A DNA stretch of 54,542 nt. It comes from Girardia tigrina. Lineage: Eukaryota. Each line of letters starts with the position of its first letter. Position 1 is the first letter of the stretch. Location: NCBI GenBank assembly GCA_001938485.1, contig MQRK01180317.1:32107-86648 (forward strand), written 5' to 3'. A program made the position numbers. Shown here in pieces: positions 6,301 to 24,081 of this stretch.

Positions 6301-9300
6301 TGGATATTATTTACATTTGACCGTTATGAAAATATTGATGATATGAAGTGCTAGTTGTGTTTTACAAAAAGGCTGTTCTGGTTAGCTATGGCACTCGAGA
6401 CCTTTCAAGACGTTATGATGAACGTACACTCAACTATAAACATTTAACTATTTGGATGATAAGTAGCAATTGAATGTTAGATTAACGTACTACAAAGTTT
6501 ATGAAGAAAATCTAAAGCTATCACATTAATTCATTATTTGTATTTGAAGTCTTCGAGGAATCCGTAAATTCTACAAAGGATTTATTGAAGACTGCAGAAA
6601 ATCAACCCCTGTAAATTTTCATTTCAGAACAGTCAATGTTTTTAGAAAATTCTCGGCAAGTTTGGCGATCCACCTCTTTCAAACATTCGACGAATCGTGT
6701 CTCTGGAAACTCGTCTGGACTGTTTTACCTAGGAGTATTATTGTAAAAATAAAATTTATCAAACTTAAAATATCATTTCTCAGAACTTCGACAAGTAATA
6801 CTTTTCTTATAGAGCGAGTTGATGTTTCTGGATGATTTGGAGTTGTTTTTAAAAAACCTTAAAAACCTTAAAACATTTAAATCAACACATTTTTAAATGT
6901 TGTATGTTGATTTGGATTGTACCTCTCCTAACCAGATGGATGATTAATATTTTAATTCTGAAACTAATTTATTCAAATTAAGATTTAATATTCAAATTTT
7001 TAATTTTTATTATTATAAATTTTAAATAATTTTATTGATTTTATTTTTGTAAATTTTTAAATGATTAAAATCAAATTAATGTTTAAAAATGACTATAAAA
7101 AGTAATTTTATTTTAACCAATAAAATTTAAATTAAATATTTAAAATAAAATAATTCTTCTCAAGTTAGTTCAGATTTGGGATGAGAAGTATTAAACATTG
7201 AGTGATGAATTTAAGTGAGAGCAATACTATTGATTGTCATAGAGATGATCAAAATTGCTAATATAATAAACGTTCTACCAAATGTGTGAGTTCTCTTAAA
7301 ATTGAGAATACATTGGGATGATTATTAACAGTTCAATGGAAGAAAGTAAACATTTCGTAGAAAAAATTAAAAAAAACGATCTCATTTTTAAAGATCGGTT
7401 TCAGTTTTGCTCCATATTTGTGTGACTATTATTTAAAAAAATGAAATTTTAGACGCATTCGAAATGGCGGAATTCGAACACCATTGTTGTACTTACAATA
7501 TTTTTTACGAATTTTCGTATATCAAGTGACAATGGTCTATTGAATAAAGTCTCTCAAATCGCACCTGATTAAAAAAAATTCAGCAAACTCTTGAACAAAA
7601 TCAGCGGGTTTTTTTCATCGTGCTTTAAAAACCGAATTCAAATTTGTCACGAATTTTACGATAATTTGGTGAAATATCGAGACGATATTGAGATGATTTC
7701 AAAGATTTTGGAGTTAATGTGGGCAAACTTTGGATACCAATCAATAAATTGGAGAGATACGCAAAAGAGCAGTAAGATATTCTTCACAATTTTCAACCCC
7801 TGATAAAAAGAGAGTCCCTGCCAACGCACCCGCGCCACAACAACGCAGCTGCGACACCCACTCTGTTAGTGGAAACCGTATACAATAAACTAAATTATTT
7901 TATTCCAGAACCACAAGTCTTTCTATTTGACTATAAGACTTTTTTATCCAAAAATAAACAGAAAAACTATTTTCTAAAACAAATTCATTTCTCATTTAAG
8001 AAACACATAATTTTATCAAAATAAAATACATCATTGAAATATTTCTCTATCAGACACTGATAAAATATTTTGTTTGAATTAATGTTTTATGAAAATAAGA
8101 GTTTTTTTATCAGGTTTTTTAATAATATTTCTTTTTTTTCAGAAAATGAAAATTTTTCATTTTATCATTGCTGTTAGCAATGATATGGACAAGACCTACT
8201 ATTCTGAAGTGTCAGCCGGAGTGCTGGGCATATCCGTCGAGTGTCGAGAAGGTTCCTGTAAGCATTTTCTACAAATGTCAGACGTTACTGATGAGAAGCA
8301 AAAGATTGCAAAGCCAACTGAGAATCAATTTTATATTAAAACCATTTTGAAAAATGGATCTGCTCATCAGGTTTGCATTTGTTATTTTCGTGTGATTGTA
8401 AAATTTTATAACATATTAAAATATAAATTTTGATTTTTGAACTGTCTTTTAAACAATCTTTTTTAACCCAATATGTTCATTGAAGCCATACAAATTTTTT
8501 CATATATAATAAATATTTAAACAAAAAAAAACTAAGAGACAGTCATAAATTAGACAAGATAATAATGAATTGGTCTCTTATTAATTTTCTTATAATTTCA
8601 ATATTCAATAATTCAAAAAAATTAATTAAAAATTAATTATTTATACATTCATTTTGTAAATATAATACACGCAATATTTTATTATTGGAGATTTTTGTTT
8701 AATATAAATTATATTATTAAAAAAATATTTCTTTACTTGATTATAAATTTGATTTTTTATTTAAAGATTTATTATTATTTTTATAATTGATTGTTATTAT
8801 TACGATATCAGGGATATTTAAATCTTAAGAAGTCTACATTAGTCAAATTATGAACTGCCCAGTAAAATATTATGAAAAAAACCATATTATATACAAAAGC
8901 TTCATTTAACACTGTAGGTTTTAAATTTGTTTCTCAACCTTTTTAGTTTTTGGCCACCAAAAATAAAGTAAATAAAGTCATGACCTCCCTAACCCCCTCC
9001 AATAATTAACAAAAATCAAATCACAATTTTAGATCGATTTATTAGAAATCACATGAAATCGCACATTGTTCGTATTTAAAGGTTTTTAAAGCAATTACAA
9101 TTTCTTACAATACATAAATTATTCAAATTTGATGAGGCTGTTGCTGATGTTTATCATCACAAGGTTTATTAAATCGAGGTTCAGTAATGATCAAGGCTAC
9201 TCTCATGTCATAGAAGCCAACAAATCAATTTTTATCTATGATTTTAATTGAAACAAGTGTTGAAAATCCTTTTTCACATATCTAGATAATGGAAACTGCA

Positions 9301-22400: not shown

Positions 22401-24081
22401 AATAGAATGTATTTTGTGTAAGTAATAAGTTTTAGCTATAATTAATTTTTAAAATGGCAGAACAAAATGTTTTCATAAATTTTAAAATGATTATTATCTT
22501 AAATAGATTAAAACAATTTTAAATTAGAACTAATTTTAAATATTTTGTAAAGATTTTTTAATTTTAAAATGTGTATTATGTTAGAATAAATTTTTATCGA
22601 TTTAGATAATATTTTAAAGTTTTTGATTTTAGAAGTTTAATCTGAATTTGACTGTTGAGATAAATGTCAGTGAATTGATTATTAAAAAAAAGTTTAAAAT
22701 TGTGAATTTGAATTCATTTGAAAGAAATTATTATTTGTACTAATAAAAATTATTAAAAATTATGAATCCTAATTCAAATATTGATAATTATATCAAAGTA
22801 ACTGCAAGTATAATAATAAAAACAAGAAAATTAAAAAAATATATTTTGTAAATTTAATAATTTATTTAATTATTTATTTTTTAACGATCACTCATTACAT
22901 TAAATAAAAATTGCTAAATTCCTTTCTTAAGTTTCTTTTAAACCAATATTTAATAAAAATAATTATCATTATTTTTCATCACAACAAGTTTTATATTTTT
23001 TTATTCCTTACAATTATTTTTTAATCTAATTAAACTTTTTATTTTTAAAGATTTTTCAAATATAATGATAATTATATTTTTTTATTGACTAAAATTAGAC
23101 TAAAAATAATAAATAATAAAAATAAATAGATTAAAATTAATTAATTAAATTAAATTAAATTAAATTATTGACTAAATTTTACAAACAATATTTTGTCCGT
23201 GAGCCACTTAAATATATAAATATTTCTTAAACATGTATATTAAATAAAATTTTTTGTGGGAAAATAATAATAAATTATTAAATTATTGGCAAAAAAATTT
23301 TAAAAAAATATTTTAAAGAAAGTTGCGTGTGAAAACTCTACCAAAATTTTAGTCACAGAAATTCATTTTATTTTAATAATATTTTTTAATTGATTATTTG
23401 ATTTTTAAGTGATTATTTTTTTTTAATTTTGTTTATTTAAGGATGGAAGATTAAAAGTTGGAGATGAAATTTTAGCAGTTCAAGGAATCAATGTACAAAA
23501 TGGAAAAAAATTCCATCATGATTCTCAGGACGATATTTACGGAGACATTTTTCATTTTGATCTCGCCACCGTTTTCCTCAGGAATCTTGATAAATTGAGC
23601 AAACTTTCAGAATTTAAGAATCAGTTTAAATTGAAACAAGAAAATCCCCTGCAAACATTGAAAATGATTATCAAAGAAGCTGGAAAGATGTATTCATCAA
23701 TATCGATTGTTATTAAAAGATTTGTGTCAATAAATAATGGAAACGTCGAGGATAATTTGATTCAACAAGTGAGTTTTCTTTATTTATTTTTTTTGGAAAT
23801 TCATACAAATGGACTGCGGCTTCTTTCCCTTTTATTGTCATTGTTATTTGTAACAAATATCAGAGAAAAAACGATTTTCCACTGGAAGCTTTTGGAGATA
23901 AATGTTAATATTAATTTAATTATTTATGATCAATATTGAAATTATATTATCTGAAAATTTATTATTCCCTATACTAGTGTTTTTCAATCTTTTTGGTAAA
24001 GTGGAACCCTGTTAAAATGGCTACCATGCTTGTATAATCCTTTGCAATTGTTTTATGTGACGCAATAAACCTCGTCAGTGT

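What the first reader, a model, noticed from the sequence alone, without database searches (positions are those of the whole stretch)
8143..23768. Par3-like PDZ domain split by a 15-kb intron and carrying three loop insertions
Seen: the two exons join in phase to form one PDZ, which the ORF track misses. Against recalled human Par3 PDZ3 there are insertions of about 8 aa before the carboxylate-binding loop, about 17 aa in betaB-betaC and about 43 aa before alphaB, the ligand-binding helix. All are stop-free in an otherwise decayed region, which suggests selection. Inference: a highly derived polarity scaffold with possibly altered ligand specificity.
Basis: partly seen in the sequence, partly recalled or inferred. 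Interest (0 to 1): 0.65.

Follow-up and report, generated by a model that had tools for sequence, protein, structure and literature searches.

The report
Split, insert-bearing Par3-like PDZ domain
Two small exons 15 kb apart in an AT-rich animal genome together encode one unusually expanded PDZ protein-binding domain, most probably the third PDZ of a highly diverged Par3-type cell-polarity scaffold, which is a real but modestly interesting lineage-specific variant.

Summary
Exon 1 (8143-8370) and exon 2 (23442-23768) are open, both multiples of three, and have good splice signals. A 477-aa protein from a related organism (P0001, encoded on a 1567-nt contig, so transcript-like) reads straight across the junction and keeps all three inserts (67.5% and 77% identity). 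That contiguous stretch passes Pfam's PDZ cut-off across the junction (31.9 against 23.2 bits). Neither window exon alone does.

Against four Par3-type proteins the inserts measure 8-9, 15-18 and 43 aa. The 33-aa core of the third insert is 31/33 conserved, as well as the PDZ core.

Par3 kinship is the best-supported reading but is not proven. It rests on the neighbouring PDZ of P0001, on collinear alignments and on a loop motif. The split PDZ alone cannot be placed. No Par3 N-terminal domain, PDZ1 or aPKC site was seen. Altered ligand specificity is untested, and the structure model was low-confidence.

The joined window model was never built or searched.

The parts
8113..8142 (+). Acceptor of exon 1: T-rich tract ending in CAG
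   Evidence: Homology to P0001 starts at 8143.
8143..8370 (+). Exon 1, 76 codons, phase 0/0: betaA, carboxylate-binding loop, betaB, long betaB-betaC loop, betaC and the start of alphaA (KMKIF...NGSAHQ)
   Evidence: Translation. tblastn of P0001 residues 154-230 gives 67.5% identity, E = 5e-26. hhalign to a 4-sequence Par3 PDZ3 profile gives E = 1.5e-3 with 42% identity over 52 columns, but a probability of only 6.6%.
8185..8208 (+). Insert 1 (MDKTYYSE; about 8-9 extra residues counting S12 and V27), between the ND of betaA and the SAG-LGISV loop
   Evidence: Gaps of 8-9 in all 4 blastp alignments to Par3-type proteins and in hhalign. 5/8 identical to P0001.
8218..8232 (+). Carboxylate-binding loop GVLGI (the Phi-G-Phi motif is kept, with one extra V)
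   Evidence: SAG.?LG[IV]S[VL] is found only in the 4 Par3-type PDZ3 domains among 150 proteins (the pattern was chosen after seeing the data).
8251..8328 (+). Enlarged betaB-betaC loop (insert 2, 15-18 extra residues)
   Evidence: It is the least conserved part, 10/24 identical with two indels against P0001.
8371..23441 (+). Intron, 15,071 nt, 26% GC, GT...AG. It holds transposon remnants and antisense gene fragments.
   Evidence: P0001 has no residues between the two exons.
23412..23441 (+). Acceptor of exon 2: T-rich tract ending in AAG
23442..23768 (+). Exon 2, 109 codons, phase 0/0: rest of alphaA, betaD, betaE, insert 3, alphaB, betaF and a short tail (DGRLKVGDE...NLIQQ), followed by the donor GTGAGT
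   Evidence: tblastn of P0001 residues 230-339 gives 77% identity, E = 1.3e-47. hhalign gives E = 1.1e-4 with probability 28%.
23502..23645 (+). Insert 3 region (G21-N68 of exon 2; net +43 residues) between betaE and alphaB
   Evidence: hhalign gaps of 25 + 18. An alternative MAFFT alignment exists.
23532..23630 (+). Conserved 33-aa core of insert 3 (DIYGD...NQFK), modelled as a strand plus an amphipathic helix
   Evidence: 31/33 identical to P0001. The AF2 secondary structure for the matching residues of P0001 is E271-278 and H279-294, at pLDDT below 50.
23646..23720 (+). alphaB (PLQTLKMIIKEAG) and betaF (SISIVIKR)
   Evidence: hhalign pairs these with AMETLRR...AITLTIARR of Par3 PDZ3. 21/25 identical to P0001.

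Best explanation
The two exons are adjacent coding exons of a live gene with very long introns. No other exon of the gene lies in the 54.5-kb window. Spliced at 8370/23442, they encode one PDZ domain.

The gene is most probably a strongly diverged member or offshoot of the Par3 (Bazooka/PARD3) scaffold family, and this PDZ corresponds to Par3 PDZ3.

The fold elements are kept: betaA, a Phi-G-Phi carboxylate loop (VLGI), betaB, betaC, the DGRLKVGD turn, alphaB and betaF. Three lineage-specific additions sit around the peptide groove:
- 8-9 residues in the carboxylate-binding loop;
- a fast-evolving 15-18-residue extension of the betaB-betaC loop;
- a 43-residue insert before alphaB, whose 33-residue core is as conserved as the domain core and probably forms an extra strand plus an amphipathic helix.

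Inferred, not shown: the domain still binds peptide ligands. The conserved insert then acts either as an added binding or dimerisation surface or as a lid on the alphaB/betaB groove, changing what the domain binds.
For: Splice signals, phase and openness.

P0001 is 477 aa on a 1567-nt contig. It is contiguous across the junction and keeps all inserts.

The contiguous stretch of the relative passes Pfam PDZ at 31.9 bits against a cut-off of 23.2, on residues that span the junction. All 10 of the ten best Atlas hits with a family are PDZ.

Conservation is uneven, as expected under selection:
- betaA 14/14, betaC-alphaA 13/14, betaD-betaE 16/18, alphaB-betaF 21/25
- insert 3 core 31/33
- betaB-betaC loop 10/24, first part of insert 3 5/12

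Par3 kinship:
- The four reference proteins are Par3-type. P0145 has Par3_HAL_N_term (E = 1.3e-30) plus three PDZ matches. Its PDZ3 hits the other three at 96-126 bits, against 49 for the next protein. P0119 and P0115 carry DGFGRQS[MI]SEKRH.
- These four give the top per-domain hits to PDZ-A of P0001 among 268 proteins.
- They give the top collinear HSPs at 79-99 bits, against 76 for the next protein.
- Exon 1 matches ND...SAG.LGISV.
- Par3 PDZ3 domains rank 2, 9 and 20 of 892 for exon 1 in a gap-tolerant alignment.
- The careful tree puts PDZ-B, joined to one other long branch, next to the Par3 PDZ3 clade at 89/58.
Against: Exon by exon the signal is weak.
- Exon 1 has no Pfam or meaningful PDB hit.
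- Exon 2's best PDB hits are DLG4 (E = 0.023), PATJ (0.03) and MUPP1 (0.38), all on the generic first 22 residues.
- hhalign probabilities are only 6.6% and 28%.

Other points against:
- For exon 2, Par3 PDZ3 domains rank 74, 203, 290 and 434 of 892. The fourth Par3 PDZ3 ranks 367 for exon 1, and the top hit for exon 1 is a MAGI-type PDZ.
- The tree support is not starred, and PDZ-B joins a long branch from a 9-PDZ protein. Without that row, the quick tree moves PDZ-B elsewhere.
- Whole-protein rankings are led by MUPP1, MAGI1 and PTPN13. No protein named Par3 is among the 120 listed.
- P0001 shows no Par3 N-terminal domain, no PDZ1 and no aPKC motif. The basic stretch before PDZ2 is replaced by EIDDK.
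- The margin of Par3 PDZ2 over a PTPN13-type PDZ is small (49.6-56.6 against 46.1 bits).
- The AF2 model of PDZ-B is low-confidence (pLDDT 32-59).
- Expression in the window's own organism was not checked.
Confidence: 0.6

Rival explanations
1. The gene belongs to another multi-PDZ scaffold family (MUPP1/PATJ, MAGI or PTPN13-like), and the resemblance to Par3 is convergence or noise in short, fast-evolving PDZ domains.
For: The top whole-protein hits are MUPP1-type, MAGI1 and PTPN13. Exon 2's best PDB hits are DLG4, PATJ and MUPP1. Exon 1's best gap-tolerant hit is a MAGI-type PDZ. In the tree PDZ-B pairs with a PDZ of a 9-PDZ protein. In all, 101 proteins give a best HSP that spans both PDZs, so collinearity is not unique to Par3.
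Against: The whole-protein scores are sums over 5-13 PDZ matches. Per single domain and per single HSP, all 4 of the 4 Par3-type proteins come first. The named MUPP1 (P0152) reaches 63 bits, against 79-99. The loop motif occurs only in Par3 PDZ3 among the 150 proteins searched. No L27, WW, GuK, FERM or phosphatase piece was found in P0001 or in the window.
Confidence: 0.2
2. There is no 43-aa insert before alphaB. In this reading the degenerate stretch QNGKKFHHDSQDD is alphaB, IFHFDLATVFLRN is betaF, and everything after it (two helices and a strand) is a C-terminal extension of the PDZ.
For: MAFFT aligned IYGD--IFHFDLATVFIRNL of P0001 with IQGDGPNAVPYAITLTIARRV of Par3 PDZ3. C-terminal extensions of PDZ domains are a known theme (reference list of PMC7094393, seen).
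Against: The would-be alphaB is the least conserved part of exon 2 (5/12) and is almost free of hydrophobic residues in the window. Global hhalign pairs PLQTLKM...SISIVIKR with alphaB and betaF. IIKEAG....ISIVIKR fits the usual ending of a PDZ (my recall of the family pattern). The AF2 secondary structure gives a helix at 299-313 and a strand at 316-321, though at low confidence.
Confidence: 0.15
3. The insert is removed, always or in some isoforms, by a cryptic in-frame mini-intron (an exitron), so that the mature protein has a near-normal PDZ.
For: 21 in-frame GT...AG pairs exist in exon 2. One of them (23493-23624, 132 nt = 44 codons) would remove almost exactly the insert.
Against: P0001 keeps the whole insert. 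The insert core is 31/33 identical at the protein level with no frame change, which a pure intron would not show. The candidate donor is GTACAA, and the candidate acceptor has no pyrimidine tract, unlike the gene's two real acceptors.
Confidence: 0.08
4. In the window's organism the two exons are relics of a dead gene in a region full of gene fragments, and their openness is luck.
For: The window holds several isolated fragments of unrelated genes, one of them frameshifted. No flanking exon of the PDZ gene was found in 54.5 kb.
Against: 185 codons carry no stop or frameshift, in DNA whose mean stop-free run is 12.4 codons. All four splice signals are intact. The only indels against P0001 are in frame and lie in the variable loop, and conservation is uneven in the way selection produces.
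Confidence: 0.07

Closest known systems
Par3 / Bazooka / PARD3, third PDZ domain (represented here by P0145, P0119, P0115, P0132)
   Same: It follows a PDZ whose best matches are Par3 PDZ2, with a similar linker length. It shares ND...SAG.LG[IV]SV at betaA/betaB, the IxK...GGAAxKDGRL-like centre, and an alphaB/betaF that align with AMETLRR...ITLTIARR.
   Different: Canonical PDZ3 is very conserved: 96-126 bits between proteins from different 50%-identity clusters. This domain scores only about 25 bits against any PDZ and carries +8-9, +15-18 and +43 residues. No N-terminal oligomerisation domain, PDZ1, basic region or aPKC phosphorylation motif was seen in the relative.
PTP-BAS (PTPN13) PDZ2b splice form
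   Same: An insertion in the beta2-beta3 loop of a PDZ folds back onto the sheet and lowers peptide affinity. This shows that loop inserts can retune a PDZ (PMC7094393, section 4.5, passages read).
   Different: That insert is 5 residues and arises by alternative splicing. Here the loop gains 15-18 residues, fixed in the exon, alongside two further inserts.
Extended PDZ domains (PSD-95 PDZ3 alpha3; Zasp52 extended PDZ)
   Same: Extra secondary-structure elements attached to a PDZ core alter binding (PMC7094393, passages; PMC5081203, title and abstract in the listing).
   Different: Those extensions lie outside the core, at its ends. The conserved 33-aa element here is inserted inside the domain, between betaE and alphaB (if the hhalign alignment is right).
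MUPP1/PATJ, MAGI and PTPN13 tandem PDZ scaffolds
   Same: Tandem PDZs with similar spacing. They give the highest summed scores to P0001.
   Different: Their best single domains and HSPs score lower than those of all four Par3-type proteins. None of their accessory domains was found.

Membership tests
PDZ domain (Pfam PF00595) | Match to the family profile above the curated cut-off | tested here: met
   Met for the contiguous natural stretch of the relative P0001: 31.9 bits against 23.2, E = 1.7e-7, across the junction. Not met for the window exons taken singly: exon 1 gave none, and exon 2 gave PDZ_6 at 11.4 bits against 27. The joined window model was not searched.
PDZ domain (Pfam PF00595) | Carboxylate-binding loop (x-Phi-G-Phi) followed by betaB, and an alphaB/betaF pair closing the groove | tested here: inconclusive
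   VLGI followed by SVE is present. alphaB and betaF are assigned by hhalign and by AF2 secondary structure at low confidence. An alternative alignment exists.
Par3 / Bazooka / PARD3 | N-terminal PB1-like oligomerisation domain (Pfam Par3_HAL_N_term) | tested here: inconclusive
   Absent from P0001 and from all window ORFs of at least 45 codons. However, the gene runs off the window, and P0001 may be 5'-truncated.
Par3 / Bazooka / PARD3 | Three PDZ domains in the order PDZ1-PDZ2-PDZ3 | tested here: inconclusive
   One PDZ lies in the window and two in P0001. No PDZ1 was seen.
Par3 / Bazooka / PARD3 | PDZ2 orthology of the preceding domain | tested here: inconclusive
   The best four single-domain hits of PDZ-A are the four Par3-type PDZ2 domains (49.6-56.6 bits), with the next hit at 46.1. 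In the tree PDZ-A sits in an unresolved fork with them. PDZ-A is known only from the relative, not from the window.
Par3 / Bazooka / PARD3 | PDZ3 signature ND[TS]GSAGLG[VI]S and high PDZ3 conservation | tested here: inconclusive
   The motif is present but interrupted (ND + 8 residues + SAG + V + LGISV). Par3 PDZ3 domains rank 2, 9, 20 and 367 of 892 for exon 1, and 74-434 for exon 2. The overall score is far below that between true PDZ3 domains.
Par3 / Bazooka / PARD3 | aPKC phosphorylation motif (CR3/APM, GFGRQSxSEKR; motif recalled) | tested here: not met
   The regex finds it in P0119 and P0115 but not in P0001. The C-terminal part of P0001 has no counterpart in the window. By eye there is only ERF...SGFGWSLDN in P0001.
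MUPP1 / PATJ | N-terminal L27 domain and 10-13 PDZ domains | tested here: inconclusive
   No L27 was found in P0001 or the window. The full gene is not available.

The most novel reading that the evidence does not exclude
A short Par3-derived scaffold has lost the oligomerisation domain, the basic region and the aPKC site. Inside its last PDZ, directly before the ligand-binding helix, it has gained a conserved, folded 33-residue strand-helix module. That module would make the PDZ a composite domain with a new binding or self-association surface, or a built-in lid. Such an insertion site inside a PDZ core did not turn up in the two literature searches made here.
Probability: 0.15. Interest if true: 0.55.

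Novelty: new variant of a known kind. Interest (0 to 1): 0.3.

Why it matters
Canonical Par3 PDZ3 is among the most conserved PDZ domains. Together with PDZ2, it supplies most of the binding energy for the aPKC/Par6 complex (PMC9352551, passages read).

A lineage in which this domain has been remodelled around its peptide groove, yet is kept under selection, would be useful in three ways:
- as a natural experiment on how much a PDZ fold tolerates;
- as a hint that polarity wiring differs in that lineage;
- as a reminder that exon-wise annotation misses domains split by very long introns.

The practical weight is limited. The organism is unidentified, only two sequences carry the inserts, and no function has been tested.

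Tried and rejected
**Exon-by-exon searches.**
- Pfam and PDB were too weak to name a family.
- Pairwise phmmer against 892 PDZ domains gave a best score of 7.4 bits for exon 1 and 17.0 bits for exon 2.

**Search for further relatives.**
- Exon 2 against longer proteins found 1 hit among 1437 candidates.
- P0001 residues 150-340 against proteins of near length found only P0001 itself among 400 candidates.
- Exhaustive phmmer of P0001 against 1.84 billion representatives found nothing close except P0094, a 74-aa fragment 73% identical to P0001 65-127. That library did not return P0001 itself, so it may lack that source.

**Naming.** Their identity therefore rests on Pfam, the motif and mutual scores.

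**Phylogeny.**
- The careful tree (58 rows, 103 columns) gave no starred placement.
- The repeat without the long-branch partner did not finish. Only the quick tree was seen, and the AU test did not run. I did not continue it.

**Structure.** AF2 of P0001 with a 7-row alignment gave mean pLDDT 41.9. PDZ-A was good (79-89) and PDZ-B poor (32-59), so no fold search was made and no 3D claim is drawn.

**Other checks.**
- Other exons of the gene in the window: none by tblastn or phmmer over 2998 frames of at least 12 codons.
- Rfam and tRNA scans found nothing.
- Mini-intron: rejected as the main form.

**Unchecked.**
- The closed collections metagenome contigs and viral contigs.
- Any eukaryotic genome or RNA-seq data.
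- dN/dS, because no nucleotide sequence of the relative was available.
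Full report
**Scope and limits.**
The window is 54,542 bases at 19-36% GC in 2-kb steps, with three N runs that I left untouched. Nothing suggests a human contig. The joined exon 1 + exon 2 sequence of the window was never built, typed, searched or folded. Where a contiguous sequence was needed I used a natural protein of a related organism that a search returned (P0001).

**The observation.**
- Exon 1 is 8143-8370 (228 nt, 76 codons). It follows a T-rich tract ending in CAG and precedes GTTTGC.
- Exon 2 is 23442-23768 (327 nt, 109 codons). 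It follows a T-rich tract ending in AAG and precedes GTGAGT.
- Both are phase 0, so they join as ...ILKNGSAHQ|DGRLKVGDEILAV...
- The intron is 15,071 nt at 26% GC. The exons are at 37% and 31% GC.
- The stop-free frames holding the exons are 116 and 170 codons long. The mean stop-free run in the window is 12.4 codons. Only 13 of 7864 runs reach 116 codons, and only 2 reach 170.

**Support from a relative.**
- Searching exon 2 alone against longer proteins gave one hit among 1437 candidates. This was P0001, 477 aa, E = 3.6e-45, 78% identity over the whole exon, from a single contig of 1567 nt.
- A 1434-nt reading frame on a 1567-nt contig leaves no room for introns, so I take it for a spliced transcript. 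That is an inference.
- tblastn of P0001 on the window finds exactly the two exons and nothing else of note. Residues 154-230 match 8143-8370 (67.5%, E = 5e-26), and residues 230-339 match 23439-23768 (77%, E = 1.3e-47).
- P0001 reads AHQDGRL without interruption and keeps all three inserts.
- Homology stops at each of the four proposed exon boundaries.
- This is evidence for the junction in a relative, not in the window's own organism.

**Is it a PDZ?**
- Singly, the exons are not recognisable. Exon 1 has no Pfam family at E up to 10, and exon 2 has PDZ_6 at E = 0.27.
- In the PDB search exon 1 has one irrelevant hit. Exon 2's 14 hits are led by DLG4 (0.023), PATJ (0.03) and, lower down, MUPP1 (0.38), all on the generic first 20-22 residues.
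- The contiguous stretch of the relative (187 aa) passes the curated Pfam PDZ cut-off at 31.9 bits against 23.2 (E = 1.7e-7). The matched residues span the junction.
- In the protein-language-model search, all ten of the ten best hits with a family are PDZ, with a best score of 0.90.

**The inserts.**
- I compared against four Par3-type proteins found here, not against recalled human Par3.
- blastp of P0001 shows a gap of 8-9 residues before the carboxylate-binding loop and 15-18 in betaB-betaC, in all four alignments.
- A global hhalign of exon 2 against a 4-sequence Par3 PDZ3 profile puts 25 + 18 = 43 extra residues between betaE and alphaB. It pairs PLQTLKM...SISIVIKR with AMETLRR...AITLTIARR.
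- The hhalign E-values are 1.5e-3 (exon 1) and 1.1e-4 (exon 2), but the reported probabilities are only 6.6% and 28%.
- MAFFT proposed a different alignment, in which IFHFDLATVF is betaF and the rest is a C-terminal extension. I rate this lower because the would-be alphaB is the least conserved and least hydrophobic part.

**Selection.**
Identity between the window and P0001, by segment:

| Segment | Identical |
|---|---|
| betaA | 14/14 |
| insert 1 | 5/8 |
| loop plus betaB | 12/15 |
| betaB-betaC loop | 10/24 (both indels lie here) |
| betaC-alphaA | 13/14 |
| betaD-betaE | 16/18 |
| first part of insert 3 | 5/12 |
| core of insert 3 | 31/33 |
| alphaB-betaF | 21/25 |
| tail | 9/16 |

This unevenness, the lack of stops and frameshifts, and the intact splice signals argue for a functional gene. 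They also argue for a structured, constrained role of the 33-residue insert core.

**Par3 or not.**
The reference set:
- P0145 has the Par3 N-terminal domain (E = 1.3e-30) and three PDZ matches.
- Its PDZ3 hits P0115, P0119 and P0132 at 125.6, 112.8 and 95.8 bits, against 49.1 for the next protein.
- P0119 and P0115 carry the aPKC-site motif (the motif was recalled).

For Par3:
- The neighbouring PDZ of P0001 (PDZ-A, not in the window) has its four best single-domain matches among 268 proteins in exactly these four (56.6, 51.0, 50.9, 49.6 bits). A PTPN13-type PDZ follows at 46.1 and MAGI at about 42.
- The best single HSPs, which run from PDZ-A through the linker into the split PDZ, rank these four at 1, 3, 4 and 5 of 267. 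Rank 2 is the fragment P0094.
- SAG.?LG[IV]S[VL] occurs only in the four Par3 PDZ3 domains among 150 proteins, and exon 1 has SAGVLGISV preceded by ND. I chose that pattern after seeing the data.
- In a gap-tolerant alignment, Par3 PDZ3 domains rank 2, 9, 20 and 367 of 892 for exon 1.

Against Par3:
- For exon 2 the Par3 PDZ3 domains rank 74, 203, 290 and 434. The best hit of exon 1 is a MAGI-type PDZ.
- In the careful tree the split PDZ joins another long branch, from a 9-PDZ protein, and the pair sits next to Par3 PDZ3 at 89/58, not starred. PDZ-A is in an unresolved fork.
- Without that long branch the quick tree moves the split PDZ, and the AU test did not finish.
- By summed whole-protein score the lists are led by MUPP1, MAGI1 and PTPN13. 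No protein named Par3 is among the 120 listed.
- P0001 has no Par3 N-terminal domain, PDZ1 or aPKC motif. The basic stretch before PDZ2 reads EIDDK.

I put Par3 descent at about 0.6. Whether the gene is the lineage's Par3 orthologue or a truncated paralogue cannot be told from this window.

**Structure.**
AF2 on P0001 with a 7-row alignment gave a mean pLDDT of 41.9. PDZ-A was confident (79-89) and the split PDZ was not (32-59). The secondary-structure order in the split PDZ is:
- strands 155-162, 183-189 and 215-222; helix 227-231; strand 239-243;
- then strand 271-278 and helix 279-294, which are the insert 3 core;
- then helix 299-313 and strand 316-321.

This agrees with the hhalign reading but carries little weight.

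**Mini-intron.**
Of the 21 in-frame GT...AG pairs in exon 2, one (23493-23624, 132 nt) would remove the insert almost exactly. Its signals are poor, P0001 retains the stretch, and the stretch is conserved as protein. A minor isoform cannot be excluded.

**Context.**
- No other exon of the gene lies in the window. The upstream intron therefore exceeds 8.1 kb. The downstream one exceeds 30 kb unless an exon lies in an N run.
- The intron and flanks hold transposon remnants and isolated fragments of unrelated genes.

**How it likely works.**
- Shown: a conserved, spliced PDZ-coding unit with three lineage-specific additions.
- Inferred: the PDZ fold and a peptide groove are retained, since the Phi-G-Phi loop, alphaB and betaF are all present.
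- Inferred: the variable betaB-betaC extension may tune binding, as a 5-residue insert does in PTP-BAS PDZ2b (PMC7094393, passages).
- Inferred: the conserved strand-helix element before alphaB adds a surface or a lid at the groove.
[quoted passage not shown] Whether this domain still does so is open.

**Novelty.**
- It is a new variant of a known kind.
- Two literature searches (listings only) showed no description of such a Par3 variant or of an insert at this site. These searches are narrow, and I make no claim of absence from print beyond them.
- Interest is modest, at 0.3.

Noticed in passing
window 27521-28219 (+), 51136-51963 (+), 33969-34431 (-): Mariner/Tc1-type transposase remnants, broken into several frames. 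The Pfam matches are Transposase_1 at E = 1.1e-20 with HTH_Tnp_Tc3_2; Transposase_1 at 9.7e-8 with HTH_48; and a weak third copy at E = 0.0042.
   Followed up: partly
window 10646-11635 (inside the intron): A roughly 990-nt element with 164-nt terminal inverted repeats (89% complementary). It encloses a 131-codon minus-strand frame with an HTH_32 match (E = 3e-6). It looks like an internally deleted DNA transposon.
   Followed up: partly
window 18842-19180 (-), inside the intron: An isolated frame matching the N-terminal part of E3 UFM1-protein ligase 1 (profile positions 17-65 of 272, E = 4.4e-8), antisense to the PDZ gene. No other piece of that gene was seen among frames of at least 45 codons. 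It could be a nested gene with small exons or a stray fragment.
   Followed up: no
window 26150-26425 (+): The start of an adenylate/guanylate cyclase catalytic domain, split over two overlapping frames (profile 1-32 and 23-56 of 183; E = 0.0067 and 5.4e-5). That means a frameshift or a tiny intron. It lies 2.4 kb downstream of exon 2 on the same strand and is not part of P0001.
   Followed up: partly
window 40262-40447 (-) and 40987-41347 (-): A myosin-head piece (profile 140-181 of 679, E = 1.3e-11) lies only about 540 nt downstream of the C-terminal end of an ABC-transporter ATP-binding domain (E = 1.2e-6, in two frames) on the same strand. An internal myosin exon directly behind the end of another gene suggests that at least one of them is a fragment.
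   Followed up: no
window 9712-9903 (-), inside the intron: By eye this frame resembles a replication factor C small subunit (RVLELNASDE ... ALRRTME), with the middle missing. Pfam gave no match at E up to 0.01, so this rests on my recall only.
   Followed up: no
window 49211-49376 and 50964-51129: Two 166-nt direct repeats, 96% identical and 1753 nt apart. They flank minus-strand frames, one with a weak retrotransposon gag match (E = 0.0092). This is possibly a small or truncated LTR element.
   Followed up: no
window 14371-14538 (+) and 48504-48737 (+): Two frames with a YIGET.R....R..E motif. From recall, this resembles the GIY-YIG endonuclease of Penelope-like elements. There was no Pfam match.
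   Followed up: no
window 17394-17615 (+), inside the intron: A fragment of a DDE_3 transposase (E = 2.3e-4, below the curated cut-off).
   Followed up: no
window 2604, 3354, 18598, 19371, 24058, 24804, 47781, 52279, 54500 (approximate starts): (TA)n microsatellites of 30-50 nt recur through the window and dominate the repeat families.
   Followed up: no
window 38038-39185 (+): A long open frame (280 codons listed) runs into the N run at 38806-38876, and another frame continues after it. It was not scanned against Pfam because of the X residues. The N run was left as it is.
   Followed up: no
P0001 residues 25-36 and 385-420 (relative, not the window): Before PDZ2 the Par3-type proteins have the basic stretch RKIGKK. 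P0001 reads EIDDK there. Its C-terminal part contains ERF...SGFGWSLDN, which by eye could be a decayed remnant of the ERFxRDGFGRQSxSEKR aPKC site seen in P0119.
   Followed up: partly
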